Shown here piece by piece: positions 10,333 to 50,584 of a DNA stretch of 57,587 nt (positions are counted from its first letter, which is position 1; every line of letters begins with the position of its first letter). The DNA lies in UHGV virus genome UHGV-0383221; one strand, written 5' to 3'. The notes under the pieces are model-generated. The model was not told the DNA's origin, ran no database searches, and worked only from the letters and a program-made list of their open reading frames with translations. Position numbers and translations under genes: made by a program. Source of the DNA: a virus.

Positions 10333-10562
10333 TATCTCTCCTCCTTCCATATGTTTTTGTGAATTTGCGATAAATAACAAATTTAAGTTGATTTTTTTTG
10401 CGATTTATAGTAAAATAAAGTCACCACAACAATACTTAACAAACGCATTTTCTGTTTTATATTTGCCATTTATCGCAACTTCTGATTTTATTATACGCGT
10501 TTTTTGGCAAATGTCAAGTTGAGTTTGCGTTTTTTCGCAACTTTTTTTTGAAAGGCAGCCAT
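10333..10562. promoter_or_regulatory. divergent cro/repressor control region with four TTGCGAT-type operator half-sites
   Basis: TTGCGATAAAT at 10365-10375 and its exact inverted copy ATTTATCGCAA at 10468-10478. Related TTGCGATTTAT at 10398-10408 and TTCGCAAC at about 10534-10541. AT-rich. Confidence 0.5.
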
Positions 10563-10985
10563 ATGAACGTAAAAGAAAGAATTCAATTTCTATGTAGAAA
10601 GAATGGGATTACCAGTAAATCATTAGAAGAGCACCTTGGTTTTGGAAAGGGATACATCAGCAAAATAGATAAATCTGCCCCAAATCTATCAAAAATAAAA
10701 CCAATTGCTGATTATTTCGGAGTCACTGTCGATTATCTCATGACTGGAAAAGAGGCCAATAGTGGAGAGGTTGAATTAACGTCTAAAGATGAAAGAGATA
10801 TTACAAATGACTTACGAAAAATGATGGCAAATATCCGAAGTGCCAAGGATGGACCTCTATATTTTGAAGGTAAGGAAATTGACGAGGCATCTATGATACT
10901 GCTTGAAAATGCCTTAGGACATGCCATGAGAGAAACTAAAAAAATCAACAAACAGCGCTTCGGCCGCAGAAAGGACCCCAAATAG
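10548..10985 (+). CDS. ImmR/cI-like XRE-family repressor
   Basis: N-terminal HTH (KERIQFLCRKNGITSKSLEEHLGFGKGYISKI). Paired with a downstream ImmA-type metallopeptidase. Confidence 0.7.
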   Translation: MKGSHMNVKERIQFLCRKNGITSKSLEEHLGFGKGYISKIDKSAPNLSKIKPIADYFGVTVDYLMTGKEANSGEVELTSKDERDITNDLRKMMANIRSAKDGPLYFEGKEIDEASMILLENALGHAMRETKKINKQRFGRRKDPK

Positions 10986-10995
10986 GTGGTTTTGG

Positions 10996-11433
10996 TTGAA
11001 TAGACGTATCAAGCGTATTGTTGCCTATTACAAAAGAAAACTTGGAACCAATGATCCTCTAAAGATAGCGCAGTATCTTAAAATACAGGTGTATTTTTGT
11101 CCATTAGGAAATATTGCAGGAAACTATGTGTATATACGCCGTGTCAAATGGATATTTGTCAATTCAGATATAGGGGATGATGTTTTTAGGCAAATAGTGC
11201 TGGCACATGAATTAGGACATGCCATTCTGCACCCAAAGGAAAACTGTGCCTTTATGGCTCATCACACGCTATTACTGACCAGTCGTATTGAACGCCAGGC
11301 AAATATGTTTGCCGCTCATTTGCTTATTAGTGATAATTTATTAAGAAACTTTTCAGATTTTACCCATAGTCAATTTTGCGACTGCACAGGATACCCCGAA
11401 GAATTATTGAATTTACGTCTTATAGAACAATAA
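10996..11433 (+). CDS. ImmA/IrrE-family zinc metallopeptidase (anti-repressor protease)
   Basis: HEXXH motif VLAHELGHAILHP. Immediately downstream of the repressor, the classic ImmR/ImmA pair. Confidence 0.7.
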   Translation: MNRRIKRIVAYYKRKLGTNDPLKIAQYLKIQVYFCPLGNIAGNYVYIRRVKWIFVNSDIGDDVFRQIVLAHELGHAILHPKENCAFMAHHTLLLTSRIERQANMFAAHLLISDNLLRNFSDFTHSQFCDCTGYPEELLNLRLIEQ

Positions 11434-11593
11434 AAGCTCCTGCGCTACCAACGCAGAAGCTTTCACATAGATACTATTGCCTGATTGAGTCAATGCAATA
11501 ATATAGGCCTCGTAAACCTACTCGTATTATATCATTTGACTTCAAAAATGGCAATGGATGTATTTTGATTACTCATTTTTAGGAGGATATGAT

Positions 11594-12967
11594 ATGGCAG
11601 AAGCAAAACAACTTCCTTCCGGTTCATGGCGTTCCTTGGTATATACACATAGTGAACAGGTGTATGATGATTTAGGGGCACCTGTTCGTTACCAGAATGG
11701 GAAGTTAAAGAAAAAGAAAATGTATGAATCTTTCACAAGTACTCTTCCCGGAAAAAAAGGGAAAAAAGAAGCCGAACGGATGGCCAGTATCTTTGAGGCA
11801 GAAATGGAACGCAAAAGCCGTCCTGAAAGCTGCACTGTCTCTGATGCTATTGATAAATACATTGCATCCTGTGATGCATTGTTATCTCCGACTACCATCC
11901 AGGGATACAGAAAGATGCAGCGTAATGGTTTTAAAGGTATCATGAATATGAAGCTAAAGGACCTTACTACCGAACGGCTCCAAGAAGCTGTAAACGAAGA
12001 AGCTAAGCGGACATCAAAAAGAAATAAGACCAACCCTAAGCCGATATCCGCCAAAACTGTTATCAATGAGTATGGCTTATTAACTGCCGTATTTCAAAAG
12101 TATTACAAATCATTAGATTGCGCTGTACGACTTCCCAAAAAGGATGAAGTAATTAAAGAGCTTCCACCACCAGAAGTTATATATAATATTGTCAAAGATA
12201 CCAAAATAGAACTTGCTGTTATGTTGGCAATGTGGCTCAGTTTTTCTATGTCTGAAATAAGGGGGCTTACCAAATCAAAATCTGTAGATGGTGATTATCT
12301 TACCATCCGTGAAGTGGTCGTTGATGTGGATGGAAAACCACTGCGAAAAGGACAAGCCAAGCAGTCCACTCGCATAAGACGCCATGAAATTCCTCCCTAT
12401 ATAAAAGATTTAATTGACAACGTAGAAACCGATCAGCTTATTACATTAAGTGGACATGCAATATATTGTAGATTCGTCAGATTAATGCAAAAAAACGGAC
12501 TTCCACATATGACATTTCATGATCTGCGTCATATCAATGCATCTGTCATGGCTTTACTCCAGATTCCGGATAAATACGCCCAGGAACGCGGCGGATGGAA
12601 AACAGACTACACAATGAAGAAGGTATATACCCATACTTTCAGTCAAGGACGGTTGGAAGCAGATAATAAAGTTAATGACTACTTTGAGCGATCATTAAAC
12701 CTTGAAACTGAAAATAATACCCCTATATGTGTTGGAAAAATATCAGATACAGATTACATGTTCGTAGTTAATGGATTACAGCGTGTTGTCCGAATTGGTG
12801 ATCGGATACAAATAAAGTATGAGAAAAACAAAAATCTCATCAATGCCCGCGGCTATCTTACTAGTGTTAATTTAGATGAGATGATGCTTGGAAATAGAAA
12901 GTTCCTTATGCGTACAGTAAGAGATTTTATTAATTTGCCACAACACGAGCCACAACACGAAAGTTGA
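11594..12967 (+). CDS. int: tyrosine recombinase / phage integrase
   Basis: C-terminal catalytic region with HDLRH (TFHDLRHINAS) and a downstream tyrosine (KKVYTHTF). Start taken at ATG 11594, 7 nt after an AGGAGG RBS; the ORF track starts at 11558. Followed by an att-like repeat. Confidence 0.7.
   Translation: MAEAKQLPSGSWRSLVYTHSEQVYDDLGAPVRYQNGKLKKKKMYESFTSTLPGKKGKKEAERMASIFEAEMERKSRPESCTVSDAIDKYIASCDALLSPTTIQGYRKMQRNGFKGIMNMKLKDLTTERLQEAVNEEAKRTSKRNKTNPKPISAKTVINEYGLLTAVFQKYYKSLDCAVRLPKKDEVIKELPPPEVIYNIVKDTKIELAVMLAMWLSFSMSEIRGLTKSKSVDGDYLTIREVVVDVDGKPLRKGQAKQSTRIRRHEIPPYIKDLIDNVETDQLITLSGHAIYCRFVRLMQKNGLPHMTFHDLRHINASVMALLQIPDKYAQERGGWKTDYTMKKVYTHTFSQGRLEADNKVNDYFERSLNLETENNTPICVGKISDTDYMFVVNGLQRVVRIGDRIQIKYEKNKNLINARGYLTSVNLDEMMLGNRKFLMRTVRDFINLPQHEPQHES
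12937..12962 (+). repeat. 26 bp direct repeat, copy 1 (GCCACAACACGAGCCACAACACGAAA; itself two CCACAACACGA units)
   Basis: Exact copy again at 13141-13166. Copy 1 forms the last codons of the integrase gene. Confidence 0.6.
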
Positions 12968-13000
12968 AACTGTACGTATTTACAAGCATTATGTAACATC

Positions 13001-13029
13001 GGATTGTGGTTCGATTCCCCTCAGCTCCA
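13001..13029 (+). other. tRNA 3'-end-like fragment (T-loop GGTTCGATTCC + acceptor-like tail), candidate att core
   Basis: GGATTGTGGTTCGATTCCCCTCAGCTCCA carries the canonical T-loop 11-mer. No complete cloverleaf can be built upstream. Confidence 0.35.
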
Positions 13030-13140
13030 TTTTTAAGAGGTACGTATTTGCAGGAAACAACGTAAATACGTACTTTTTATTTTATTTAACCACATTGTAA
13101 ATGTGGTTAAACTAACGAAAAATGTGCATTTTTATGTTGT

Positions 13141-13166
13141 GCCACAACACGAGCCACAACACGAAA
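13141..13166 (+). repeat. 26 bp direct repeat, copy 2
   Basis: Identical to 12937-12962. Confidence 0.6.
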
Positions 13167-13188
13167 TTCAGTCTAAAAGGTATTAATT

Positions 13189-13216
13189 AAGGGATCTCTA
13201 AGGATCCCTCATTTTG
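13189..13216 (+). terminator. rho-independent terminator-like hairpin
   Basis: AAGGGATC-tctaag-GATCCCT stem followed by CATTTTG. Confidence 0.45.
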
Positions 13217-13400
13217 TCAATGAACTCAATTACATCCTGAATCATTCTTTTCTCCTGCTCAGAATGTTCTGCGCTAAGCAGGATACTCCTGAATATCATA
13301 TATTCCTCCTTTCTCATCAAAATTGCCTTGCTACACCACATGCAAATTTTATCATCTGTATCCATACCTCGCCCTCCTTTTAATTAGAGAACGAAGCAGA

Positions 13401-13706
13401 TCACTTTTCCCTTCGCTTTGTCCCGATATCGGGACACTTTTTAAATTTCACTGCTGAATCGAATAAATCCACAATTCCAATATGTAACTCTTCTGCTATC
13501 ATCTCGGCCTCATGGAGGGTCATTGATACCTCTCCATTCTCTATCCTACTCAAAGCCGACTTTGATAATCCAGTCATGATTTCCATCTGCCGAAGGGATA
13601 ATTTCTTCTCTTCTCTTATTTTTTTCAGCAGTATCTTCATAAATATGAATATACCACTTTTCTTTATAAAAATATCTGGAAAAAAGATCCATAAATGGGT
13701 ACACAT
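13401..13706 (-). CDS. XRE-family HTH protein
   Basis: LSLRQMEIMTGLSKSALSRIENGEVSMTLHEAEMIAEEL is an XRE HTH. The true start is likely the internal MKILLKK at about 13638. Confidence 0.5.
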   Translation of the reverse strand: MCTHLWIFFPDIFIKKSGIFIFMKILLKKIREEKKLSLRQMEIMTGLSKSALSRIENGEVSMTLHEAEMIAEELHIGIVDLFDSAVKFKKCPDIGTKRREK

Positions 13707-13810
13707 GGAATAATTGGCTGATCCGGTAGCCCATCTTATATTATTTATATTTACATGTGTTATATAATCTAAACAGCCGGGGATACTAACCTAAAACGAG
13801 AGGTGATCAC

Positions 13811-14621
13811 TATGCCAGCAGCGCACAAGGGAGCAATAAGTTTTGGGCTTGTACACATTCCTGTAGCATTACACACAGCTACACAGGACAACGATATACA
13901 CTTTAATCAGCTTTGCAAGGAGGACGGGTCCCGGGTAAAGTATAAAAAAGTCTGTGCCAATTGCGGCAAGGAAGTAGGCACACAGGATATAATTAAAGGG
14001 TTTGAGTTTGCGCCAGGTCAATATGTGACAATGACTGATGCAGATTTTGAGAAAGCCAAAACCGAAAAGGACAAAACAATCCAAATCCTACATTTTACAG
14101 ATATCCACAACATACGTCCCATCTATTTTGATAAAACGTATCATGCAGTTGTTGAGGCTGGCGGGGATAAAGCCTATGAATTACTCCGCAAGGCCATGTT
14201 AGATGAGGGTAAGGTGGCGATAGCCAAGACTGTAATGGGGCAATCAGAAAAGCTACTCTGTTTGATTCCTACGCCAAAGGGGATGCTTGTTGAAACTCTA
14301 TTTTTTGCGGACGAAGTGAAAGAAATCCCCAAGGAACCAGCGCACCCAGAATTGCAGCAGCAAGAACTGGATATGGCAAAGATGCTTATTAACTCCATGG
14401 ACAAAGAGTTTGAGCCAGAATTGTATCATGATGAATACCAAATAAGGCTAAGGCAAATTATAGAAGCTAAAATAAACGGTCAGGAAATTGTTAATGCACC
14501 AACAGAGCATCAGGACAACGTAATCGATATCATGGAGGCACTGCAGCGTAGCCTTGCGCAGGTATCAGACAATAAGCCTCCGACCAAACGTAAGCCGCGC
14601 AAAAAGGCTGCAACAGCATGA
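13811..14621 (+). CDS. ku: Ku protein (NHEJ DNA end-binding)
   Basis: N-terminal MPAAHKGAISFGLVHIPVALHTA is the hallmark bacterial Ku start. Basic Lys-rich C-terminal tail. ATG at 13811 with a GAGAGGTG RBS; the ORF track begins at an upstream GTG, 13803. Confidence 0.8.
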
Positions 14622-15568
14622 TGGACCTCTTTGACAGTAAAAATATTAAACCAATGCTGATCGGAAAAGAGATGGCTCCATTTGATGATCCAAACTATAT
14701 CTATGAGTTAAAATGGGACGGAGAACGGTGTGTGGCCTATTTGGAGCCAGGTAAGCCGCCAGAGTTACGTAACAAACGTAACGTCCGTATGCTATCCAAA
14801 GTACCAGAGTTGGCAGAAATCAGTAAGCAGGTCAAAAAACGTTGCATTTTGGATGGCGAACTTTTTATCCTTAAAGATGGACGTCCTGACTTTTCCTTGA
14901 TCCAGCGCCGCAGCCTTATGTCAGACCGGTTTAAAATCGAATTAGATTCCAAACATAATCCTGCTACATTTTCGGCCTTTGATATCCTGTACTATGACTG
15001 TCAGGAAACCATGCTCTTACCATTGATGGAACGCAAAGCTCTACTTGACAAATCTATTACAGATGGTCCCCGTATGGCTATCTCGCGCTATGTGGATGGA
15101 CAGGGTACACCACTTTTTGATTTTGCTATAGAAAGGGAACTGGAAGGAATAGTTGCAAAGGTCAAAGACAGTATCTACATCCAAGAAAAAAGGACCACAG
15201 ATTGGATAAAGATGAAGGTTATGATGGAGGATGATTATGTAGTATGTGGATATATCCTAAAAAGCAACCACATGACCAGTATTGTCCTGGGACAGTACCG
15301 GGGCAATACATTAATCTATAAAGGCCACGTTACCATGGGTGTCAGCGGGCAGGCGTTTGATATCATCTCCAGACATTCCACGCTCCCTGCTGCCCCATTT
15401 ATCGCATACCCGGCAGGCCACGGTAATGACCGGGCCGTCTGGCTCTCTCCAGATCTTGTGTGTATAGTCAAGTTTATGCACCGTACAAAATCTGGAGGGA
15501 TGAGACAGCCGGTATTCAAAGGATTACGTTTTGATAAATTGGCAAAAGAATGTATTGAAAATGTTTAG
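14618..15568 (+). CDS. ligD: ATP-dependent DNA ligase, LigD ligase-domain type
   Basis: Motif I ELKWDGERCVAY (K-x-DG-x-R adenylation lysine). 316 aa, ligase domain only, no polymerase or phosphoesterase modules. Start overlaps the Ku stop (ATGA). Confidence 0.75.
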   Translation: MMDLFDSKNIKPMLIGKEMAPFDDPNYIYELKWDGERCVAYLEPGKPPELRNKRNVRMLSKVPELAEISKQVKKRCILDGELFILKDGRPDFSLIQRRSLMSDRFKIELDSKHNPATFSAFDILYYDCQETMLLPLMERKALLDKSITDGPRMAISRYVDGQGTPLFDFAIERELEGIVAKVKDSIYIQEKRTTDWIKMKVMMEDDYVVCGYILKSNHMTSIVLGQYRGNTLIYKGHVTMGVSGQAFDIISRHSTLPAAPFIAYPAGHGNDRAVWLSPDLVCIVKFMHRTKSGGMRQPVFKGLRFDKLAKECIENV

Positions 15569-15604
15569 GCGGGCCCGGTCATCCGGTACCCGCCTCGTTA
15601 CATT
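15569..15604. terminator. bidirectional terminator hairpin between convergent genes
   Basis: GGCGGGCCCGG...CCGGTACCCGCC stem (15569-15594) flanked by T-runs on both strands. Confidence 0.45.
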
Positions 15605-15820
15605 TTAGTTTGACCGTGGACATGGACGCCTATTCCATCTCCCGTCTTCAAATCCTACTCTATAACCATCATTAAAACCTTCCCGATATGCCCAACGCCT
15701 CTCATTGGCGCATGGGTCCCAATTGTTACCCCAGTTTCCGCCCCAGTTATTTCCTCCACCAGAGCTGAACCACCACGGGCAGCAACAGCAGCATCTACAG
15801 CAACATCTACAGCAACACAT
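15605..15820 (-). CDS. Cys-rich / Gly-Asn-Trp-repeat micro-protein (71 aa)
   Basis: MCCCRCCCRCCCCCPWW... followed by GGGNNWGGNWGNNWD repeats. Strong GGAGGAG RBS 7 nt upstream of the ATG (plus 15828-15834). Confidence 0.45.
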   Translation of the reverse strand: MCCCRCCCRCCCCCPWWFSSGGGNNWGGNWGNNWDPCANERRWAYREGFNDGYRVGFEDGRWNRRPCPRSN

Positions 15821-15879
15821 TCTTTTCTCCTCCTCTAATATAGTTTGTACTATATTATATGGGACAGATAGACAAGGTG

Positions 15880-16077
15880 TTACTGCTTCCTTTCCTCCTG
15901 TATCCTCCTCCAGATTTCCTCAAATTCGCCCGGATCCGGCCTGGGAATGACATCATCCGGGACGTGATCCCTGGCCCATTCATACTCTTTCAACAGTTCT
16001 TCATCAGATTCTTTCAGTTTCTCCATATCTCCCATCCTTCCTTGTCTATTCTGTTTTATTTTAATAATACCATACAT
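15880..16077 (-). CDS. small acidic hypothetical protein (65 aa)
   Basis: Highly charged E/K/R/D-rich ORF. Confidence 0.3.
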   Translation of the reverse strand: MYGIIKIKQNRQGRMGDMEKLKESDEELLKEYEWARDHVPDDVIPRPDPGEFEEIWRRIQEERKQ

Positions 16078-16153
16078 TGGGGTCTAAAAACAGAACCTTT
16101 GGTTATATTAATCCTACATCTATAATTGGATTATAAAGGTCAAGGGTGATGAA

Positions 16154-16360
16154 ATGATTAAATATGATAAGCTGTGGAAGACCATGAAAGATAAAGGGAT
16201 CACCCAGTATATGCTGGTGAAAGAGTATAATATCAGTAAATCATTGCTGCACAGATTACGTAACAACCAAGGGGTAAATATGAATACCATTGATACCCTG
16301 TGTGACATACTGGATTGCGACATTGAAGATATAGCAACGCATTACAACAGCGAGGAATAA
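16154..16360 (+). CDS. XRE-family HTH protein (68 aa)
   Basis: ITQYMLVKEYNISKSLLHRLRNNQGVNMNTIDTLCDIL is a typical HTH_XRE. Confidence 0.55.
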   Translation: MIKYDKLWKTMKDKGITQYMLVKEYNISKSLLHRLRNNQGVNMNTIDTLCDILDCDIEDIATHYNSEE

Positions 16361-16377
16361 TCCCCGCTGTCTTTTTA

Positions 16378-17220
16378 TTATTCCCCCAACCCCGGCCACC
16401 GCAGCGCCCCGTCCTGATCGGGCGTCAACACCACCGTATCCATGGACAACTTGCCGTCCTGATCCAGATAATACCACTTATCACCGCTCGCCTGTAGGCC
16501 CTTTACCATTGCCCCATCAGCCCCCAAGTAATACCAATCACCCTTGTACTGATACCAGGTGTTGATCACCATGCGACCGGCGCCGTCAAACCAGTACCAC
16601 TTGCCGTCTGTATCCAGATACCAGCTGTTGCGCACACAATCTCCTGTGTTGCCCAGGTAAAAGCTTCGGGATCCATCTTCGTTCTGTCTCCATCCTGATA
16701 ATTTAGGTTCCTCCGGCTCCATCACTGCATCATCCTGTATGTATCGTTTTACAGCCACCAGACCCTTCCTCCAGCCCCCAGATGCCCAGGAGTTATACCG
16801 GCTCTTGCAGTAGGCCGCCAGGTCTTTGTAGGACGGTCTGCCTGATCCATGTCCGCAGATGATACCATCTCCGCAGTACATCTCCACGTGGCCGATCCGC
16901 TTTGGCCTGCTGGCATCCGTACCGGCAAACAGCAGCATGTCTCCTGGCCGTAACCGGGACGTGTCAGGGATGCCCTGGGCTATGTCTGCATCCACCGTGG
17001 TCAGTTTGGCAGAGTTGTACATGCCCGCGGTATTTGTGATCCCGAAGCCTTGCCCTGTCTGCTGATAAGCGTAGCAGATGGATGATGAGCAATCACTGTA
17101 GTAGTTGCCGTCCTTGTATGCCTTATAGCAATAATCCCGCAAGGACTGGCTGTATATGTTGCGGCCTATGATCTCTGCGTACTTGTCGATCACGGCCTGT
17201 CTCCTTAATAATGCTGTCAT
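16378..17220 (-). CDS. endolysin: NlpC/P60- or CHAP-type peptidase + cell-wall-binding (choline-binding-type) repeats
   Basis: N-terminal Cys/His catalytic residues (CSSSICYAYQQTG... GHVEMYCGDG). C-terminal repeated GDxWYYLxxDGxM motifs (DGKWYWFDGAGRMV, GDWYYLGADGAMVKG, DKWYYLDQDGKL). Confidence 0.7.
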   Translation of the reverse strand: MTALLRRQAVIDKYAEIIGRNIYSQSLRDYCYKAYKDGNYYSDCSSSICYAYQQTGQGFGITNTAGMYNSAKLTTVDADIAQGIPDTSRLRPGDMLLFAGTDASRPKRIGHVEMYCGDGIICGHGSGRPSYKDLAAYCKSRYNSWASGGWRKGLVAVKRYIQDDAVMEPEEPKLSGWRQNEDGSRSFYLGNTGDCVRNSWYLDTDGKWYWFDGAGRMVINTWYQYKGDWYYLGADGAMVKGLQASGDKWYYLDQDGKLSMDTVVLTPDQDGALRWPGLGE

Positions 17221-27046: not shown

Positions 27047-27125
27047 TCAAAAAAAGAGCACCAATTAACCCGTTGCGATTAACTGGTACTCTAGGTACTC
27101 TCATTATTTAAGAAGGAAGGAAAAT

Positions 27126-27929
27126 CTATCCCACAGCTCTATCCTTCCCAAGAAATTTATTTATAAAATACTGTTGTCCTTTTCCTGTCACCAAAGTTGT
27201 CCTGGTTAGCCGAACGCTACCATCCGGGTTATCAATTGCCCTTTCTTTTACTTCAAACAAACCTAATTCCATAGCCTTCTGAGTAGGCATCCTGCGCCGG
27301 TCCCCATTCTTAATTAGGTATCCATTGTCATACATCCACGTAAATAATCTGTTCTGGCCAATAGGTACACCGTTCTGAGAAATCAGTTTTGCCAAATTAC
27401 CAATAAGAATTGATTCTTTACTGGCAGCTACAGCATCCGCAAAGATAGCCTTTGGTTTCATTGATTCATTCTCTGCCTCCAAGGCCCTTCGCTTTTCACG
27501 TTCTTCTTTCAATGCCGTAAATGCCTTGATTGCCAAGTCAGGATCATCCAGCAAATCATCAACTGCATACATACCATGTCGCCGAATGGTTTTTAGGATT
27601 TCTTTGACCTTTTTCTTGAACTCCTTTGCAATCGGCTTTCGGCTCAGCATCAGGACTTCATACAGCCCTTCTTCGGTCAAAAACCATAATTCAGAACCAC
27701 TCGGATTATTTATCGTAGTGCGGATTTTAACTTTCTCATCCTCATCCACGGATCTGAGCATTCCTGATACATCGTAATACCCTTGCCCTGTTTTGTTAAA
27801 GTCAATCCACTCTGCCACATCCCTGGCCATAAACAATGGCTGCTCTGGTGTTCCGTAAACCCTAAAGTTCTTCCCTAATACTTCCTGTTCCTTAATAATT
27901 GATAATTCGCCCATATTATCACTCTCCAT
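27126..27929 (-). CDS. phage antirepressor (Bro-N + KilA-C domains)
   Basis: N-terminal ELSIIKEQEVLGKNFRVYGTPEQPLFMARDVAEWI is a Bro-N domain. The C-terminal half resembles KilA-C (ILIGNLAKLISQNGVPIGQNRLFTWMYDNGYLI). Confidence 0.6.
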   Translation of the reverse strand: MESDNMGELSIIKEQEVLGKNFRVYGTPEQPLFMARDVAEWIDFNKTGQGYYDVSGMLRSVDEDEKVKIRTTINNPSGSELWFLTEEGLYEVLMLSRKPIAKEFKKKVKEILKTIRRHGMYAVDDLLDDPDLAIKAFTALKEEREKRRALEAENESMKPKAIFADAVAASKESILIGNLAKLISQNGVPIGQNRLFTWMYDNGYLIKNGDRRRMPTQKAMELGLFEVKERAIDNPDGSVRLTRTTLVTGKGQQYFINKFLGKDRAVG

Positions 27930-28190
27930 AATAAGTGGGGTGTAGAGGGACTTAGTGCTACCTCACGGTAGGAGCCCGACCTATTAGTGACTACCGGTAT
28001 TTCCCCCAGATGCCTTTCGCAATCTGGAGGAGACGAAGCAAGTTCGGAGCATACCCGAACAGGACTTTTGCTTCTGTATCCCGGAGAACGAAAAAATCGC
28101 TCAATCGGGATACTACTTGCGGCCCCGATTAAGCGACCTTATGAATATATTATATACTATTTGCATGTGGATTTCAATGACAATTTTATC
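27930..28190 (-). ncRNA. GC-rich structured leader / candidate structured RNA upstream of the antirepressor gene
   Basis: About 260 nt noncoding at about 50% GC with several perfect stems: GTTCGG-agcatac-CCGAAC, CTACC-tcac-GGTAG, TATCCCG...CGGGATA. Confidence 0.25.
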
Positions 28191-28718
28191 TTATAAAGGC
28201 ATAAGTGAAGCGTTAATTTTAATTAAGTTTTTAACAATTTGTTTAACCTTATTACTACCCCAAATTTTATATAATAGCTCTTCAAAATTTTTCTGATTAT
28301 TTATTTCTAATTCCGTTTGTACTTCTATCTCTTGTGCAATTGACTCATCCAACGCAATCGATACCGGATAGAGCATTATATCATATGCAATAATCATAAT
28401 CCTATATTTATATTTAGGCGTTGCGGTAGATGTTAAGTATAATTCATATGCCATCTTAGGATCTTCTCCAGCACTCCCCAACACATTTTGAACATTAAAA
28501 TCTTCTCCGATTATTTTTCCAAAGCTTCTCATCACAGATAATCCAGCTTGAGATGTATAGCTATGATATGGTCCATCATATTCTGATATTCGTGCAATAA
28601 TTCTACCGCCTGAATTATTATTCAATATTTCACACTGATCCAGTATTATATCCCTTGGTATAACAATGCTATTATCGTCCTCTTCATTAAAAAAATTCTT
28701 ATCCATTATGCTTGTCAT
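28191..28718 (-). CDS. unknown partner protein (175 aa) translationally coupled to the EEP-family gene
   Basis: Its start overlaps the EEP gene's stop by 4 nt (ATGA). About 30% GC. No motif recognised. Confidence 0.5.
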   Translation of the reverse strand: MTSIMDKNFFNEEDDNSIVIPRDIILDQCEILNNNSGGRIIARISEYDGPYHSYTSQAGLSVMRSFGKIIGEDFNVQNVLGSAGEDPKMAYELYLTSTATPKYKYRIMIIAYDIMLYPVSIALDESIAQEIEVQTELEINNQKNFEELLYKIWGSNKVKQIVKNLIKINASLMPL

Positions 28719-29545
28719 TGTAGCCTCTCCTCCTCAATAGAAAAACAAATTGGTAAATGATCACTAACTTTCTTAACATTCGGCTTTCCATTGCTATCAA
28801 TCAAAGACTCTTCATTTATATTACGAATAATTTTTAATGTGTCCCTCAAGAAACACTCTACCATACTGCTACTAAAAATTACTTGGTCGTAAATATTCCA
28901 AAAAAAATTAGTCAACTGAGAATTATTATAAAAATAAGTGCAAACAGGAGACTTCGTAAATTCCATCAAATTCCACATTGGATTATAGTACATTTCATAC
29001 TCCACTTCCCTTACCTTTCTTTTCTTGTCCTTCTTAACTTTATTCAGAAATGGTAAAGCATGAAGACAATCAGCCTGATAGCATGCCCGATCGAATGGAT
29101 TGAAATTAAAATCACCAATAATTATTACATTATCAATGGTTTCTTCAGTGCGTACTTCAACTAGCCCCTTTACTAATCTTCTCGTTTCATCCTTTTGCTC
29201 ATCTTCAGACCAGATACGACATTTACTAATAAAGTGAACACCTGCTATTAAGACCCTTTTTTTAGAGATTTCCATCATATATAATGAAAAGTGCCTGTTC
29301 TGATCTCGTATAACTGATATTTTGATACGTTTATCGTGTATCAATCGTATTCTATTGGCACCATCTATCACAATAGCTGGCGCAAAATCTCTTTTTTCCT
29401 TTGACAATAAATTACACAAGTTATTCAAATCATTAGGGTACTCTGACAAAACCACTATATGACATCTATTTTCAATAATTGCAGAAACAAGATATGTATC
29501 TATGTCTTTATTATTATGCGTATTCCAATACATAACCCCTATCAT
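28715..29545 (-). CDS. endonuclease/exonuclease/phosphatase (EEP) family protein
   Basis: EEP signature blocks are all present: N-terminal MYWNTHNN (beta1 Asn), VVLSEYP (Mg-binding Glu), IIIGDFNFNP (GDxN), and C-terminal VSDHLPI (SDH catalytic His). Confidence 0.65.
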   Translation of the reverse strand: MIGVMYWNTHNNKDIDTYLVSAIIENRCHIVVLSEYPNDLNNLCNLLSKEKRDFAPAIVIDGANRIRLIHDKRIKISVIRDQNRHFSLYMMEISKKRVLIAGVHFISKCRIWSEDEQKDETRRLVKGLVEVRTEETIDNVIIIGDFNFNPFDRACYQADCLHALPFLNKVKKDKKRKVREVEYEMYYNPMWNLMEFTKSPVCTYFYNNSQLTNFFWNIYDQVIFSSSMVECFLRDTLKIIRNINEESLIDSNGKPNVKKVSDHLPICFSIEEERLQ

Positions 29546-29603
29546 ATCTACTTCCTCTTTCGCATATGGTTCACAAAAATCTTACTTTTTCATCAATTGC
29601 GAA

Positions 29604-29954
29604 CTAATCTTTATCTAGTTTTGTGATCATATTGCAGACAGGGCACTGATACTCTCCGCAAGCGGCATCCTCCATCTGTATCATTTTGTCGTCTTTTCCA
29701 TAACAAGTAGAACAATATGGTATTTTTCTATCATCCTCCTTTAATGTTATATAAATCCCATTGTGCCGCTCAATATTCTGCTGTCTGTATAAATCTCCCT
29801 TAAGCTTTGCATTTTCCTCCTGCAAGCGCTTAATTTCGGACTGCATATCAAGGGCCTGGGCTCCCAAGTCCAATAGTTGCCTGTATAAATCGATATTATC
29901 CGCCTGCTGCACTATTTTAGCTACGTCCTTTATTCCTTCATATAACCCCATCAA
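29604..29954 (-). CDS. coiled-coil + C4 zinc-ribbon small protein (116 aa)
   Basis: N-terminal heptad-rich segment (EIKRLQEENAKLKGDL). C-terminal CSTC...CPVC zinc ribbon. 58 nt upstream of the EEP gene. Confidence 0.45.
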   Translation of the reverse strand: MMGLYEGIKDVAKIVQQADNIDLYRQLLDLGAQALDMQSEIKRLQEENAKLKGDLYRQQNIERHNGIYITLKEDDRKIPYCSTCYGKDDKMIQMEDAACGEYQCPVCNMITKLDKD

Positions 29955-30053
29955 AATCCCCTCCCTTATGATATCTCAAGAATACCATATAAAAAAGGTA
30001 TTGTAAATATTTTGCAAACATAAGAAAAGCCACCTTTCGGCGGCTTTGTTCTA

Positions 30054-30590
30054 CTATTTACTTTTCTTAAGTCTCCTATAGCCAGCACTATAAACAAAGG
30101 AGCAGATAACCATTAACCAACCATAATATTTTAAATCTTTAAAAATTCCATTATATACATAGCCTATCAAAAAACCGTATACCAGTAATATCAGAGCTAA
30201 GACCATTGGAATCTTAGGGTTTCCAGTTTTTCTAGTAACAATGCTTACAATTCCAATGATTATCATGAGTAAGCCGGTAAAAGTCCCGATTAATCCGTCA
30301 GAGCCATTCCCTCCTTCCAGTGCATTAACCATCCCGGCGGCACAAGACTGAAATAGCACCATTGCCGAAAAAACTATAAATATAATTCCAACAATAAGCC
30401 TTCCCGTTGATGAATATCCATTTTTTAAATCTTTTGCGTTATTGACTTTTGAAAATGACTTTGCGTTAGCATACAAATTTTCATACTCCTGTTTTTTACT
30501 ATCTACTATCACAGGACAGCCACAATGTGGACAAGCAGACGCCTTATCCGAAATTTCTTTACCACACTCAGAACATTTTATTAATGCCAT
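30054..30590 (-). CDS. zinc-ribbon + four-transmembrane-helix membrane protein (178 aa)
   Basis: N-terminal CSECGKE...CPHCGC zinc ribbon, then four hydrophobic helices. A terminator hairpin follows (AAAGCCGCCGAAAGGTGGCTTTT then TTTTCTTATGTTT on the minus strand). Confidence 0.5.
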   Translation of the reverse strand: MALIKCSECGKEISDKASACPHCGCPVIVDSKKQEYENLYANAKSFSKVNNAKDLKNGYSSTGRLIVGIIFIVFSAMVLFQSCAAGMVNALEGGNGSDGLIGTFTGLLMIIIGIVSIVTRKTGNPKIPMVLALILLVYGFLIGYVYNGIFKDLKYYGWLMVICSFVYSAGYRRLKKSK

Positions 30591-30655
30591 AAAGACATAT
30601 CCCCCTCCTATTTGATGAAGCTATTATATCAAAATAGGAAAGGGAAGTAAATGCT

Positions 30656-43155: not shown

Positions 43156-44769
43156 CTACCAGGGACGCTGCATAGGCTCACACCATCCACCACCATCCCT
43201 CCAGAAAGCTACCAATTGGGCCAAACTGTCTGGAGCATCGTCATGTTCATTCTTTCCCTCGCATGACAATTCAGTGAGTTCACTCATAAATTTCCTATAT
43301 TCTGGTGTAGCATTCTTATCGTCAATAAAATACAATCTTTTTATATCTGGGGCATGTTGGACAATCCTGGACATCTTTGCCTGTGTTCCTGGAGCATTAG
43401 CCCAAGAAAGATTACATGAAAAATTATCCTCCTGAAGAATACCATCCACGATTGTACAATACTCATGACCACCGTTATTTGCTTCAAAACGAACCATATG
43501 GGGGTGATTTCGCTTTATTGTTCCCACTACCAAAGGTCTAGTGACATCTTTGTCTCCCTGACTAAATACTAAATCATGGACATATCCCACCCCATTGAAT
43601 ACATAGACCACGGGCATTGAAAGGCTATCTCCGCCACCCCAAGCCACGTCACAGGCCGCCAAAATAAGGTCCGGCTCAATTGATGGAAGTATACCGTTAT
43701 AGTATTTCAAATCTTCGGCCGGGAACAACAAACCCTCTCGTTTAAATGGACGCCCCTGATACTTCGCCATCCACTCATTATTATCCAGTGTCTCTCGCAG
43801 GTTCTTATAATACTGAGTTGAAAACCCTTTTCCAAACTTGTAGACGAAATTACTCTCATCATTCTCATTCAGTGCCGGAATAACCCGGAATCTATACCTT
43901 GGGTCATCCTTATGCTGCGCCTGTACTTTTCCCAGCGGATCAGCTACATTCCACCGGGTTCCAACCATCAATTCTTTGGCATTATCCAGCTTACGATCAA
44001 GAATCTTATTCAGATAGTCCTGATATTTCCCCTCTAAACGCTGTGGACTTAGGGATTCCTTGCGATCCTTTATCAAGTCATCCGTATATAGAAGGTTTGC
44101 CGCTTCCACAGCACCTGTTGTGGTCCCTTCAATGGATCGGCAGGTCAATGTAGGGAACCGGCTAGGAGTATTGAGGTTGATCGCCTCATCTTCTGCGGAT
44201 GAACTTTCAAAGGTGACCCCCGGGAAAACATCCTTCCAGCAATATTCCTCGCTGCTGATAATATTCAGAGTTTCTTTGTAAAATCCTTTGGTAAGAGGGT
44301 CCGAATGGCCTGACATAAGGTTTGCAAGATCAGGATACTTTCCCATTTGCCAAGACATGAAAAAGATACAGGTTGTAGACTTACCAACTCGCGGCGGCAT
44401 GGACACGCCTAAAAAATCTATCTTTCCATCTTCCAGGTCCTGCAGGTCCTCAACCACCACCCGAAGCACATGACACCGCGGCAGATAGAACTGTTTTTCA
44501 GGGATACGCTTATGTTCCACATACAGTAGATACTCATGGAAGTAATGCGGTGCCAGAAATAGAAGTGACCGAATATATAATTCATAGAACCTGGTATCCT
44601 TCCTAGCAAGCGTATTGGCCTTGTTTTCAATTTTCCGTGCAAGCTTCAATGCTTGGACACGGTCCTCATCCAGTAAGTTCCGGCACATCTCAAAAAGCAT
44701 GGAGAGATTATCATACTGGTTCAGGTCCGTTTTTAAAAGGCGATTTACAATTTGATTGTTCTTTGACAC
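43156..44769 (-). CDS. terL: terminase large subunit
   Basis: Walker A GVSMPPRVGKST. C-terminal nuclease-type acidic motifs. 537 aa. Followed by the portal. Confidence 0.75.
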   Translation of the reverse strand: MSKNNQIVNRLLKTDLNQYDNLSMLFEMCRNLLDEDRVQALKLARKIENKANTLARKDTRFYELYIRSLLFLAPHYFHEYLLYVEHKRIPEKQFYLPRCHVLRVVVEDLQDLEDGKIDFLGVSMPPRVGKSTTCIFFMSWQMGKYPDLANLMSGHSDPLTKGFYKETLNIISSEEYCWKDVFPGVTFESSSAEDEAINLNTPSRFPTLTCRSIEGTTTGAVEAANLLYTDDLIKDRKESLSPQRLEGKYQDYLNKILDRKLDNAKELMVGTRWNVADPLGKVQAQHKDDPRYRFRVIPALNENDESNFVYKFGKGFSTQYYKNLRETLDNNEWMAKYQGRPFKREGLLFPAEDLKYYNGILPSIEPDLILAACDVAWGGGDSLSMPVVYVFNGVGYVHDLVFSQGDKDVTRPLVVGTIKRNHPHMVRFEANNGGHEYCTIVDGILQEDNFSCNLSWANAPGTQAKMSRIVQHAPDIKRLYFIDDKNATPEYRKFMSELTELSCEGKNEHDDAPDSLAQLVAFWRDGGGWCEPMQRPW

Positions 44770-44934: not shown

Positions 44935-46227
44935 TTATGCCATTCTTATTTTTTTTAAAATATATTGCTTATCATAAGATGTTACATCAAAATCTGGAGA
45001 TGTAAAATGTTCTCCATTGTCCGGCGTAAACATATATGTATATAGCCTATATAGCACCTCAAGCTTCTCACTATCTGTTTTAGTGAAAGGCATCATTTTG
45101 AAAGCATAGTTTCTTAACTCTATCACCTCCGCCAAAACCTTTTCAAGTTCAGATAATAAATTCCCTGATGTAAATTCCCTTCCATTTGTTGTATTTGTAA
45201 GGCTTAACGCCCATACTATAGGCGCTAAAACATTAAAGCAAATCGCATAAGCTTTTGTTGTACATAGCGATCCCATTGTTTTAAATTTGGAATAATAAAT
45301 ATTATATTCTCTCATAGAAAACTTATAATAATTCCCAATAGCAATGACTATATATTGACAACTCAAACACGGGTTCCGAGAGTTATCTATAAAGTTAAGA
45401 TACTTATCTACGTTTATTTTTTCTAAGGTAAATTGGTATTCAAAAAATCTATTCAAGTATGCTGTCGCATTAAATTCAGCGCCATAATAATTCTTTATAG
45501 TATGAATCAATTGTGCTTTGTTTGTAGAGAACACAAAAATAATTCGTTCATCATTAAAAAAATGTTTAACACGTTCCAGTAATTTAATAGCATAATCAGG
45601 CTTACATCTATCAAGTTCATCCACAAAAAATATTAACTTATCACAATTCTCTACAATAATTTCTTCACATAACCGGCCTAAAAGTCTTGTGTTATATTCT
45701 GTGGAATATATAGAATTTAACTCATCGGATGAATCCATCAGTTTTTCAAAATCTAGGTTCACACCTTTTAATTTCAATAAACTTTCGCAGAATACCGAAG
45801 CTTTTTTTAACAGTCTTTCCTTTTTAGTTTCATCGTTTCCCACATAACCATTGACAACCAAATTATAAACTAAAGATAGTATCGGGTCCTGGTGTTCATC
45901 GGACAACCAGGCATCATAGTATACAGGAATAAATGTTTGATTCAAACTTATCTTATCTTTAACTACATTGCTCATGATATTACTATTCTCATTGCTTGAG
46001 TTAATTCCAAATTCAATGTCTCTTAAATGTTTTAATAGTAAAGCGGACTGCCTAACAAAAAAAGTCTTCCCATCTCCCCAATCTGCATCAAGTGATATCT
46101 TAACGCAACCATCTACATTATCCAAAAACCTCATAAAATCAAACAATTCTTCATTTCTACCAATTGGATTGATTTCTAATGTTTTTATGAGATTGGTTTC
46201 AATTGCATCCAATTCATATTTCTTCAT
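44935..46227 (-). CDS. KAP-family P-loop NTPase (430 aa)
   Basis: Walker A LDADWGDGKTFF. Walker B-like hhhhDELD (IFFVDELDRC). Length and layout typical of the KAP NTPase domain. About 28% GC. Confidence 0.6.
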   Translation of the reverse strand: MKKYELDAIETNLIKTLEINPIGRNEELFDFMRFLDNVDGCVKISLDADWGDGKTFFVRQSALLLKHLRDIEFGINSSNENSNIMSNVVKDKISLNQTFIPVYYDAWLSDEHQDPILSLVYNLVVNGYVGNDETKKERLLKKASVFCESLLKLKGVNLDFEKLMDSSDELNSIYSTEYNTRLLGRLCEEIIVENCDKLIFFVDELDRCKPDYAIKLLERVKHFFNDERIIFVFSTNKAQLIHTIKNYYGAEFNATAYLNRFFEYQFTLEKINVDKYLNFIDNSRNPCLSCQYIVIAIGNYYKFSMREYNIYYSKFKTMGSLCTTKAYAICFNVLAPIVWALSLTNTTNGREFTSGNLLSELEKVLAEVIELRNYAFKMMPFTKTDSEKLEVLYRLYTYMFTPDNGEHFTSPDFDVTSYDKQYILKKIRMA

Positions 46228-50521: not shown

Positions 50522-50584
50522 AGACATAAAGAAAAGCGCTACACAAAGCGCCAATCTTTATAAACCAATTGAGAGGAGGTGGAC

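What the first reader, a model, noticed from the sequence alone, without database searches (positions are those of the whole stretch)
13811..15568. Ku + LigD-type ATP-dependent ligase operon (two-component NHEJ) between two prophage modules
Ku has the hallmark start (MPAAHKGAISFGLVHIPV) and the ligase has the hallmark KxDG motif (KWDGER). The two genes overlap by ATGA. The pair lies between an integrase/att end (about 13.0-13.2 kb) and a phage lysin (16.4 kb), flanked by small XRE regulators. It is either phage cargo or a 3 kb host islet trapped between tandem prophages. If cargo, a phage that brings its own ligase as well as Ku would be the less common case; Ku-only phages are documented, for example mycobacteriophages Omega and Corndog, which recruit host LigD. 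The ligase is the ligase domain only, with no Pol or PE domains, which itself constrains the end chemistry it can handle.
Basis: partly seen in the sequence, partly recalled or inferred. Interest (0 to 1): 0.55.

Follow-up and report, generated by a model that had tools for sequence, protein, structure and literature searches.

The report
Phage-borne Ku plus ligase repair cassette
A temperate phage of gut Enterocloster bacteria carries a two-gene DNA end-joining kit (Ku plus a minimal LigD-type ligase) as swappable cargo beside its attachment site, apparently wired for expression in the developing spore; the genes are ordinary, and only the phage vehicle and the wiring are mildly new.

Summary
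Ku (13812-14621) and a 316-aa ligase-domain-only LigD-type ligase (14618-15568) are intact, overlap by ATGA and have all the catalytic motifs.

The "two prophage modules" reading does not hold. The window is one complete, circularly permuted 57.6-kb temperate phage genome. An independent contig joins the window's end to its start at 100% identity, and a gene runs intact across that junction. The "att end" is attP, a copy of the tmRNA (ssrA) 3' end flanked by four arm repeats.

Ku-ligase lies in the attP-to-endolysin interval, so it is phage cargo. At Enterocloster-type ssrA loci, Ku appears only where the phage arm is present (3 of 17 loci) and never without it (0 of 41). The roughly 1.85-kb unit, from promoter to terminator hairpin, recurs at 97-99% nucleotide identity in other phages with different flanks and att sites. 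It is under strong purifying selection (omega 0.01-0.04).

Relatives at 60-85% identity sit in ordinary chromosomal contexts across Clostridia. Phage and chromosomal copies share a forespore-type promoter (GAATA-N14-GGNNATACTA).

Most likely function (inferred, not shown): lysogenic conversion that gives spores double-strand-break repair. No cultured phage record searched carries both genes.

The parts
10548..11433 (+). Lysogeny module: cI-like XRE repressor (10548-10985) and ImmA/IrrE-type M78 metallopeptidase (10996-11433)
   Evidence: Pfam HTH_19/HTH_3 and Peptidase_M78 at 9.7e-17
11558..12967 (+). Tyrosine integrase (called as 457 aa from 11594 on public contigs)
   Evidence: Pfam Phage_integrase plus Phage_int_SAM_3; phrog_1 integrase at 1e-36
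12938..12960 (.). Left pair of arm-type repeats, 2 x CCACAACACGA, overlapping the integrase 3' end
   Evidence: Four exact copies in the window against 0.57 expected; 0 of 100 shuffles reach 4
12999..13029 (+). attP core: a copy of the 3' end of the tmRNA (ssrA) gene. GGTTCGATTCCCCTCAGCTCCA occupies 13008-13029.
   Evidence: L006 carries a tmRNA gene at 1539-1875. Homology to the window starts at L006:1845, which equals window 12999. A four-way alignment of attP forms against host junctions is identical from the core rightwards and diverges to its left.
13142..13164 (.). Right pair of arm-type repeats, 2 x CCACAACACGA
13198..13365 (-). 55-aa ORF of unknown function in the att-proximal arm
   Evidence: Called as a gene on public contigs; no Pfam or PHROG hit
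13401..13706 (-). XRE-family HTH regulator (79 aa as called, start about 13640), divergent from Ku
   Evidence: Pfam HTH_3 at 5.9e-10; phrog_3. It is not a constant partner of the cassette: L001, L023 and L124 have other upstream genes.
13759..13788 (+). Candidate forespore (sigmaF/sigmaG-type) promoter: -35-like GTTATA 13759-13764, a 14-nt spacer, then -10 GGGGATACTA 13779-13788
   Evidence: ATACTA lies 23-34 nt upstream of Ku in 50 of 88 distinct loci, against 6 of 672 control ORF upstream regions. The column consensus is GAATA-N14-GG[A/G]N-ATACTA-A. It matches mapped C. difficile sigmaF/sigmaG promoters. Function is inferred, not shown.
13812..14621 (+). Ku, 269 aa, with the basic C-terminal tail KPPTKRKPRKKAATA
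14618..15568 (+). Stand-alone LigD-type ATP-dependent DNA ligase (nucleotidyltransferase plus OB domains only), translationally coupled to Ku by ATGA
15567..15595 (.). G+C-rich hairpin at the 3' end of the cassette, which also marks the right edge of the mosaic unit
   Evidence: RNA fold -22.4 kcal/mol, z = -4.0, 0 of 200 shuffles fold as well. Homology with other phages ends at 15594.
15605..16077 (-). Two small cargo ORFs: a 71-aa Cys/Gly/Trp-rich ORF (15605-15820) and a 65-aa ORF (15880-16077)
   Evidence: no family hit. The second is called as 48 aa on public contigs.
16154..16360 (+). Small Cro/C1-type HTH protein
   Evidence: Pfam HTH_26 at 4.8e-18
16378..17220 (-). Endolysin (NlpC/P60 plus choline-binding repeats), the last gene of the late operon
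   Evidence: Pfam; PHROG endolysin families

Best explanation
WHAT IT IS (shown).
- The feature is a self-contained two-gene non-homologous end-joining cassette. It consists of a promoter, Ku, a stand-alone LigD-type ligase domain and a terminator hairpin, about 1.85 kb in all (13748-15594).
- It is carried as exchangeable cargo (a 'moron') in the interval between attP and the endolysin gene of a complete 57.6-kb temperate tailed phage.
- The phage integrates into the 3' end of the tmRNA gene of Enterocloster (Lachnospiraceae).
- In the prophage the cassette therefore sits at the end opposite the integrase, just inside the junction with ssrA.
- The same cassette has been swapped between at least three phage backbones with different lysins, integrases and att sites. 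It is under strong purifying selection.
- It descends from the ordinary chromosomal Ku-plus-ligase-only operon of Clostridia.

HOW IT MOST LIKELY WORKS (inferred).
- In a lysogen the cassette is insulated from the phage early and late operons. It is transcribed from its own forespore-type (sigmaF/sigmaG) promoter, as B. subtilis ykoV-ykoU is.
- Ku and ligase would then be laid down in the spore.
- At germination, when there is one chromosome copy and no template for recombination, the Ku dimer threads onto broken ends and bridges them. It recruits or stimulates the ligase, which seals compatible, blunt or microhomology-paired ends. With no Pol or PE domains, the pair itself does no fill-in and no 3' cleaning.
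- The phage gains because its own genome is part of the spore chromosome being repaired.
For: One circular phage genome:
- vOTU_11035 joins window 57587 to window 1 at 100% identity.
- A 297-aa PAPS-reductase-like gene crosses the junction intact.
- Contigs of 57,642 and 57,696 nt equal the window plus short terminal overlaps.
- Portal, capsid, TerS-like protein, tail fibre, holin, endolysin, RecT and integrase are all present.

attP and the ssrA junction.

The pair is tied to the phage, not to the chromosomal site:
- Of 58 Enterocloster-type ssrA loci, 17 have the phage arm and 3 of those have Ku, within 0.5-2.1 kb of the junction.
- 8 arm-bearing loci with at least 3 kb of downstream sequence carry no Ku, and at least five of them carry other genes in that slot.
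- 41 loci without the arm have no Ku, 20 of them with at least 3 kb of downstream sequence.

Mosaic unit:
- L001, L008, L009, L023 and L044 share only 13738/13748-15594 (97.8-98.7% nt).
- There the unit lies next to tRNA-Val/tRNA-Met or a CHAP lysin.
- An E. bolteae prophage variant also sits at ssrA.
- IMG/VR locus L029 has the order lysin, Ku, ligase, integrase, with proteins only 77% and 56% identical.

Selection:
- Ku has dN 0.011 and dS 1.07; the ligase has omega 0.04.
- Window against L001 shows 31 synonymous and 0 non-synonymous Ku changes.

Chromosomal ancestry:
- The same gene pair sits in non-mobile contexts in C. symbiosum, Hungatella hathewayi, Blautia hominis, C. leptum and L130.
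- All of the top 120 ligase homologues are ligase-only.

Promoter:
- ATACTA at -23 to -34 occurs in 50 of 88 Ku upstream regions against 6 of 672 controls. GGNNATACTA occurs in 34 of 88 against 1 of 672.
- The column consensus is GAATA at -22 to -18.
- This is the form of mapped C. difficile forespore promoters such as CD1789 GAATT-N14-GGATATACTAA and spoIIR GAATA-N14-GGACATAAT (PMC3789822 Table S6).
- B. subtilis ykoVU belongs to the sigmaG/SpoVT forespore regulon and protects spores (PMC3656841).
- Sigma-70-type sites in the region are no more frequent than chance.

Terminator hairpin.
Against: - There are no expression data.
- Within this window alone the -10 motif is not rarer than chance: 3 matches against 1.5 expected.
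- The window copy has GATACTA where close relatives have CATACTA (a 1-nt deletion), and a weak -35 (GTTATA).
- A strict GHATR -35 at a 17-18 nt spacer is found in only 7 of 63 loci.
- A weak sigma-70-like site (TTGGCT-17-TATATT, 13714-13742) lies just upstream in this backbone.
- Flanking XRE regulators could impose a different control.
- Whether Enterocloster already has a chromosomal NHEJ system, which would make the cargo redundant, could not be determined.
- How a ligase without the Pol domain engages Ku has not been established for this clade.
Confidence: 0.6

Rival explanations
1. The cassette serves the phage life cycle. Ku caps and bridges the ends of the injected or replicating linear genome, protecting it from AddAB/RecBCD-type nucleases. 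The phage's own ligase then circularises it or reseals breaks made by restriction enzymes or CRISPR nucleases. This would be a self-sufficient version of what mycobacteriophages Omega and Corndog do with their Ku and host LigD.
For: - Phage Ku has a documented role in genome circularisation (Pitcher 2006, as summarised in PMC12848934).
- Mu Gam is a Ku homologue that promotes end joining with a host ligase.
- Ku and ATP-dependent ligases each form PHROG phage families.
- The attP-form junction (lysin, Ku, ligase, attP, integrase) was assembled from several independent samples, which fits actively replicating phage.
Against: - The cassette lies outside the early and late operons and on the opposite strand to the late genes. 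Hairpins lie between it and the integrase operon.
- Its conserved upstream element is forespore-type, shared with chromosomal copies, and is not a sigma-A or phage-type promoter.
- The phage has its own RecT and a DUF3799 protein read here as its partner nuclease. It also has a P22 gp3-like small terminase and an SPP1-type portal, which suggest headful packaging and circularisation by recombination.
- Phages at the same att site do without Ku-ligase.
Confidence: 0.25
2. The pair is a passively carried, recently captured piece of host DNA. It would have been picked up by imprecise excision or illegitimate recombination and would benefit neither phage nor host.
For: - The closest chromosomal relatives are in the host's own family, Lachnospiraceae (Ku 84-85% identical in C. 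symbiosum and Hungatella).
- The position next to att is where imprecise excision would put host DNA.
Against: - The chromosomal ssrA flank has no Ku-ligase to capture.
- The unit recurs in several phage backbones and at two or more att sites, with precise promoter-to-terminator edges.
- Omega is 0.01-0.04 at near-saturated dS.
- All 24 contigs read encode a ligase of identical amino-acid sequence, and the index lists that sequence in 47 blocks of the collection.
Confidence: 0.08
3. The pair is a 3-kb host islet trapped between two tandemly integrated prophages.
For: Integrase-side and lysin-side phage modules flank the pair in the linear window.
Against: - The two modules are joined to each other across the window ends in an independent assembly, and a gene spans that junction.
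- The element between the integrase and the pair is attP, not attL or attR.
- Prophage-free ssrA loci lack the pair.
- In integrated forms the pair lies on the phage side of the ssrA junction.
Confidence: 0.02

Closest known systems
Bacillus subtilis YkoV (Ku) / YkoU (LigD) spore NHEJ operon
   Same: - Ku comes first and the ligase second in one operon.
- The upstream element is forespore-type here, and the B. subtilis operon is sigmaG/SpoVT-dependent (PMC3656841).
[quoted passage not shown]
   Different: - YkoU is bimodular (Pol plus ligase); the ligase here has the ligase domain only.
- The B. subtilis operon is chromosomal; this cassette is on a temperate phage.
- Expression was not tested here.
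Ku of mycobacteriophages Omega and Corndog (cluster J/O actinophages)
   Same: A phage-encoded bacterial-type Ku. The window Ku matches 87 mycobacteriophage Ku genes at 34-36% identity, and phrog_4873 at 1e-58.
   Different: - Those phages carry Ku alone and borrow host LigD to circularise cos genomes with short overhangs.
- Here the ligase is supplied too, the host is a Firmicute, and the gene sits in the moron slot of a temperate phage behind a sporulation-type promoter.
- The packaging genes suggest headful packaging rather than cos.
Prophage-borne LigD-like ligases without Ku: SPbeta LigB (YoqV), Sinorhizobium phiLM21, Rhizobium phages
   Same: Ligase-domain-only ATP-dependent ligases of the NHEJ type on temperate phages. 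They are 27-31% identical over more than 90% of the query. The phiLM21 ligase also lies near the genome end.
   Different: No Ku relative was detected in those records. They are only distantly related to the ligase here.
Chromosomal Ku + ligase-only operons of Clostridia (C. symbiosum, Hungatella, Blautia, C. leptum and others)
   Same: Same two-gene architecture, usually overlapping or within about 70 nt, and the same upstream GGNNATACTA element. Ku is 65-85% identical and the ligase 55-60%.
   Different: Those copies are flanked by housekeeping or metabolic genes. This one lies inside a phage and moves between phages.
M. tuberculosis LigD ligase domain / LigC, and the Methanocella paludicola split NHEJ system
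   Same: The best structural relative is the LigD LigDom (1vs0), aligned end to end. A stand-alone ligase working with Ku has precedent in the archaeal split system (cited in PMC7719229).
   Different: No separate Pol or PE genes accompany the pair in the phage. Mycobacterial Ku is generally held to recruit LigD through the Pol domain (my own knowledge, not checked here), which is absent.

Membership tests
Bacterial Ku (PF02735) | Full-length Ku core beta-barrel/bridge domain | tested here: met
   Pfam Ku at 2.4e-49, profile positions 1-190 of 190. Bacterial Ku structures match at 4.6e-47 and 1.5e-42.
Bacterial Ku (PF02735) | C-terminal arm with a basic (Lys/Arg-rich) extension | tested here: met
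   The sequence ends ...SDNKPPTKRKPRKKAATA. Its role is inferred from PMC4889933, which was listed but not read.
Bacterial Ku (PF02735) | Homodimeric ring that binds DNA ends | not testable with these tools
   No structure prediction or biochemistry was done.
LigD-type ATP-dependent DNA ligase (ligase domain) | Nucleotidyltransferase motifs I, III, IIIa, IV and V, including the adenylated lysine | tested here: met
   KWDG 32-35, LDGE 78-81, FSAFD 118-122, EGIVAK 176-181, WIKMK 196-200
LigD-type ATP-dependent DNA ligase (ligase domain) | OB-fold C-terminal domain, and closest solved relative is a LigD LigDom | tested here: met
   PF04679 at 2e-13; 1vs0 aligned over residues 5-313 at 5.5e-20
Full multifunctional LigD | Polymerase (Prim-Pol) domain | tested here: not met
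   The 316-aa protein is fully covered by the two ligase domains. All of the top 120 homologues carry PF01068+PF04679 only, two of them truncated to PF01068 alone. No Prim-Pol hit was found in the other window ORFs scanned.
Full multifunctional LigD | 3'-phosphoesterase (PE) domain | tested here: not met
   Same scans as for the Pol domain. Only a weak, unrelated EEP-family hit at 28715-29545.
Two-component bacterial NHEJ operon | Ku and ligase adjacent, co-oriented, and conserved as a pair | tested here: met
   ATGA overlap. A ligase follows Ku directly in about 100 of 112 loci.
Two-component bacterial NHEJ operon | End-joining activity in vivo or in vitro | not testable with these tools
   Needs plasmid recircularisation or ligation assays.
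Phage moron / lysogenic-conversion cassette | Located between the late (lysis) genes and the attachment site, inside the prophage boundary | tested here: met
Phage moron / lysogenic-conversion cassette | Autonomous unit (own promoter and terminator) present or absent among otherwise related phages | tested here: met
   The mosaic edges 13748 and 15594 coincide with the promoter region and the hairpin. Arm-bearing prophages without Ku exist.
Phage moron / lysogenic-conversion cassette | Expressed from the repressed prophage and changes the host phenotype | not testable with these tools
   Requires transcriptomics and phenotyping of lysogens.
Forespore sigmaF/sigmaG-dependent promoter | -10 element of the form (G)GnnAnAnTA / CATAnTA at promoter distance from the start codon | tested here: met
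   GGGGATACTA at 13779-13788, 24 nt before the ATG. It is conserved across loci: 34 of 88 against 1 of 672 controls. It matches mapped C. difficile promoters.
Forespore sigmaF/sigmaG-dependent promoter | -35 element G(A/T)ATA about 14-15 nt upstream of the GG | tested here: inconclusive
   The column consensus is GAATA at -22 to -18, but a strict match occurs in only 7 of 63 loci. The window has GTTATA, the same as the C. difficile gpr -35.
Forespore sigmaF/sigmaG-dependent promoter | Dependence of transcription on sigF or sigG | not testable with these tools
   Genetic test needed.
Omega/Corndog-type phage Ku system | Ku only, dependent on host LigD, with a cos genome and short overhangs | tested here: not met
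   A ligase is encoded next to Ku. The packaging genes are P22 gp3-like TerS and an SPP1-type portal. The genome ends themselves were not determined.

The most novel reading that the evidence does not exclude
Temperate phages are a main vehicle for moving complete NHEJ systems among gut Clostridia. In Enterocloster, end joining would be supplied only by prophages and switched on in the forespore. A virus would then give its host's spores double-strand-break repair, which also protects the prophage. This would be a concrete mechanism for the patchy, horizontally transferred distribution of bacterial NHEJ.
Probability: 0.3. Interest if true: 0.7.

Novelty: new variant of a known kind. Interest (0 to 1): 0.5.

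Why it matters
- Bacterial NHEJ is patchily distributed and clearly transferred horizontally. The survey read here found it on plasmids but not in detectably foreign chromosomal regions, and it does not mention phages (PMC7719229).
- Catalogued viral Ku proteins are all from actinophages and come without a ligase (PMC11936186).
- A complete Ku-plus-ligase unit that hops between temperate phages of abundant human-gut Clostridia supplies a concrete vector for that transfer.
- If the forespore wiring is real, it adds DNA repair to the short list of sporulation-related functions that phages bring to their hosts.
- It is also a compact, naturally minimal two-protein end-joining kit from an anaerobe, which could be useful for genome engineering in Clostridia.
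- Each protein on its own is an ordinary family member.

Tried and rejected
- blastn of 13000-16400 against INPHARED phages gave no match.
- Exact-protein look-ups failed twice: once with the GTG-start Ku and once with a minus-strand ORF given with the wrong stop offset.
- The two unverified human-faecal 'Bacteriophage sp.' contigs in INPHARED were checked for the pair. MT838252 has only Ku and MT838835 only the ligase.
- The sigma-70 scan found 9 sites against 8.9 expected, so there is no convincing vegetative promoter.
- The -10 motif within the window alone is not significant. Only its conservation across loci is.
- A strict GHATR -35 test was weak, at 7 of 63 loci.
- A literature string search for consensus motifs returned noise.
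- Searches for a prior report of a phage with Ku plus a ligase found none. That library omits most subscription journals.
- The Ku homologue search did not show whether Enterocloster also has a chromosomal Ku, because few hits carry names.
- I considered building a weight matrix from the C. difficile promoter table. I dropped it because the extracted table is not in register.
- LexA/SOS control was considered. No GAAC-N4-GTTC-like box is visible upstream of Ku in the sequence. This rests on inspection only.
Full report
**1. Observation**

The two ORFs exist as described.

- Ku runs 13812-14621 on the + strand. Its ATG sits 5 nt after the RBS GAGAGGTG, so the finding's start is one base early. 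It matches Pfam Ku over the full model (E=2.4e-49) and solved bacterial Ku proteins (9vnq 4.6e-47; M. tuberculosis Ku 1.5e-42).
- The ligase runs 14618-15568 on the + strand. It has the adenylation and OB domains only and aligns end to end with the ligase domain of M. tuberculosis LigD (1vs0, 5.5e-20).
- The ligase carries motifs I KWDG, III LDGE, IIIa FSAFD, IV EGIVAK and V WIKMK.
- The stop of Ku and the start of the ligase overlap as ATGA.

**2. The window is one phage, not two prophages**

- Exact-protein look-ups found the identical ligase on contigs of 57,642 and 57,696 nt.
- One of them, vOTU_11035, starts near window 9153. It runs through window 57587 straight into window 1 at 100% identity and ends at 9262.
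- A 297-aa PAPS-reductase-like gene crosses the window's end/start junction without interruption.
- The other contig, scaffold_339, maps onto the window from position 1 and is 55 nt longer. That is the size of an assembler's circular overlap.
- The window holds a full phage gene set: SPP1-type portal, E-type capsid, gp3-like small terminase, tape measure, tail fibre, r1t-type holin, endolysin, RecT plus a DUF3799 protein read here as its partner nuclease, a repressor with ImmA-like peptidase, and an integrase.
- The 'left module' and 'right module' are therefore the two arms of one circularly permuted 57.6-kb temperate phage genome.

**3. The att element is attP for the tmRNA gene**

- Window 13008-13029 (GGTTCGATTCCCCTCAGCTCCA) is a copy of a tmRNA 3' end.
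- In L006 and L124 a real tmRNA gene, next to a host SIMPL-family gene, runs into this core. The sequence then continues into window 13030 onwards.
- To the left of the core, the host junctions carry the tmRNA body where the window carries the integrase 3' end.
- The core is bracketed by four copies of CCACAACACGA, at 12938-12960 and 13142-13164. None of 100 shuffles gives four copies. These are plausible arm-type integrase sites.
- In the prophage the order is therefore: ssrA, 55-aa ORF, XRE, Ku, ligase, small ORFs, HTH, endolysin, structural genes, early genes, integrase.

**4.

I fetched 65 metagenome stretches that carry an exact 40-nt piece of this tmRNA. I then classified what follows the 3' end. 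Of 58 loci with at least 300 nt of downstream sequence:

| Class | Loci | With Ku |
|---|---|---|
| Phage arm present | 17 | 3 (Ku 0.5-2.1 kb from the junction) |
| Phage arm absent | 41 | 0 (20 have at least 3 kb downstream) |

- Eight arm-bearing loci with at least 3 kb of downstream sequence have no Ku, and at least five of them hold other genes in that slot.
- The loci without the arm start with terminator-like hairpins. Those whose ORFs were listed (for example L178, L181, L190) continue into host-looking genes.
- The pair therefore follows the phage, not the chromosomal site, and it is optional cargo even for phages that use this site.

**5. A mobile promoter-to-terminator unit**

- Other phages share only 13738/13748-15594 with the window, at 97.8-98.7% nt identity. 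These are L001, L008, L009, L023 and L044, the last being Enterocloster citroniae DSM 19261.
- L001, L005, L008 and L009 have a CHAP endolysin, and in L001 and L005 the junction follows tRNA-Val/tRNA-Met instead of ssrA. L044 and L023 share the same narrow homology edges, but their flanks were not annotated.
- The right edge coincides with a G+C-rich hairpin at 15567-15595 (-22.4 kcal/mol, z = -4.0).
- An E. bolteae prophage at ssrA carries a variant with Ku 98% and ligase 93% identical in protein.
- IMG/VR holds 22 loci with relatives. One of them, L029, has the order amidase endolysin, Ku, ligase, integrase, with proteins only 77% and 56% identical.
- Other copies sit on non-phage mobile elements. 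L031 has a MobL relaxase, L042 an FtsK-like protein, and L133 an ERF/YqaJ/SSB module.
- Selection is strongly purifying. Ku has dN 0.011 and dS 1.07, and the ligase has omega about 0.04. Window against L001 shows 31 synonymous and no non-synonymous changes in Ku.

**6. Origin**

- Ku followed directly by a 310-320-aa ligase-only gene is the standard arrangement across Clostridia. It occurs in about 100 of 112 loci, and all of the top 120 ligase homologues are ligase-only.
- In C. symbiosum, Hungatella hathewayi, Blautia hominis, C. leptum and L130 the neighbours are transporters, regulators and metabolic enzymes, with no phage genes.
- The phage cassette is thus a captured copy of an ordinary clostridial operon. 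Its nearest chromosomal relatives are in the host's own family (Ku 84-85% identical).

**7. Regulation**

- Aligning 88 distinct Ku upstream regions shows ATACTA 23-34 nt before the start codon in 50 of them. The same hexamer occurs in 6 of 672 upstream regions of other ORFs in the same loci, and in 0.7% of random 40-nt windows.
- GGNNATACTA occurs in 34 of 88 Ku upstream regions against 1 of 672 controls.
- Column counts give GAATA at -22 to -18, then 14 nt, then GG[A/G]N-ATACTA-A.
- This is the shape of experimentally mapped forespore promoters of C. difficile. Examples are CD1789 (GAATT-N14-GGATATACTAA), spoIIR (GAATA-N14-GGACATAAT) and CD2465 (GGGAATACTAA).
- In that study a G upstream of the -10 marks sigmaF promoters and an A downstream marks sigmaG promoters (PMC3789822).
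- B. subtilis ykoV-ykoU is a sigmaG/SpoVT forespore operon needed for spore resistance to break-inducing treatments (PMC3656841).
- The window has GTTATA-N14-GGGGATACTAA at 13759-13789. Compared with the closest relatives (GGGGCATACTAA) it has lost one base.
- Sigma-70-type sites in the region are at chance level.
- The promoter assignment rests on comparative inference. Taken alone in this window the motif is not significant, and no expression data exist.

**8. Mechanism and rivals**

- The best-supported reading is a lysogenic-conversion cassette made in the forespore. It would let germinating spores, which have one chromosome and no recombination template, rejoin breaks. Ku binds and bridges the ends. 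The ligase seals ends that need neither fill-in nor 3' cleaning, because Pol and PE are absent.
- The main rival is a life-cycle role: end protection, circularisation or resealing of cleaved phage DNA, as in Omega and Corndog.
- Four things argue against that rival: the cassette's insulation from the phage operons, its host-type sporulation promoter, the phage's own RecT system and headful-type packaging genes, and the sister phages that lack the cassette. It is not excluded.
- A neutral hitchhiker is unlikely given the selection and the recurrence. The host-islet reading is refuted.

**9. Novelty**

- None of 50,697 INPHARED records has detectable relatives of both genes. Ku is found in 87 mycobacteriophages and one 5.5-kb faecal contig. 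The ligase is found in SPbeta-like and rhizobial phages and another faecal contig.
- Surveys list 11 viral Ku proteins. In the one that names them, all are from actinophages.
- A pan-bacterial NHEJ study reports plasmid-borne systems and does not mention phages.
- I found no paper that describes a phage with Ku plus a ligase, but the searchable library is incomplete.
- The proteins are ordinary family members. What is new is the vehicle (temperate phages of gut Clostridia), the completeness of the pair, and the retained sporulation-type promoter. I rate it a new variant of a known kind, of moderate interest.

Noticed in passing
window 15605-15820 (-): A 71-aa ORF with a strong RBS (GAGGAGGAG). 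Its N-terminus is MCCCRCCCRCCCCC, followed by a Gly/Asn/Trp-rich stretch. It has no Pfam or PHROG match and lies immediately after the Ku-ligase terminator, in the same cargo slot.
   Followed up: partly
window 46309-46382 and 46565-46637 (-); 44935-46227 (-): The phage encodes tRNA-Phe(GAA) and tRNA-Ser(GCT) next to a KAP-family P-loop NTPase (Pfam 2.6e-26). These lie just downstream of the large terminase gene (43156-44769) on the coordinate axis.
   Followed up: partly
window 27100-30600: A low-GC island (0.33-0.36 against about 0.5 in neighbouring tail genes) sits inside the structural region. It holds a Bro-N/ANT antirepressor (27126-27929), a 175-aa unknown, a weak endonuclease/exonuclease/phosphatase-family protein (28715-29545) and a zinc-ribbon membrane protein (30054-30590). 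It looks like a second cargo insertion.
   Followed up: partly
window 53899-55047 (-): A second tyrosine recombinase (Phage_int_SAM_4 plus Phage_integrase, 4.1e-30) lies in the early-to-late transition region, upstream of a DUF4417 protein and the packaging genes. It is distinct from the att-side integrase.
   Followed up: no
window 50409-50522: Four direct copies of a 22-nt unit (TTCTATTTTCGTGTAATATGCA), spaced 25-34 nt, lie upstream of the small-terminase region. They could be operators, iterons or a pac-related site.
   Followed up: no
window 56745-57587 joined to 1-~50 (-): A 297-aa PAPS-reductase-family gene is split by the arbitrary window ends and is intact once the sequence is circularised.
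   Followed up: yes
L004 7536-7877 and 11946-12287; L007 11934-12275; L148 downstream of Ku-ligase: In sister phages the Ku-ligase cassette is flanked by small (113-aa) proteins that consist of the Spo0A C-terminal DNA-binding domain. In L004 a Fe/Mn superoxide dismutase is also nearby. This is further sporulation- and stress-themed cargo in the same slot.
   Followed up: no
L081 6448-7716 (Clostridium leptum DSM 753): The chromosomal Ku-ligase operon there has a Y-family (ImpB/MucB/DinB-type) DNA polymerase gene divergently upstream. It is a possible stand-in for the missing LigD polymerase domain.
   Followed up: no
window 13812-14621 compared with L124 and L024: Ku stays 98% identical in protein while synonymous sites are at or near saturation (dS about 1.07 against L024, saturated against L124). 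The adjacent ligase drops to 87-94%. Constraint on Ku is unusually tight.
   Followed up: partly
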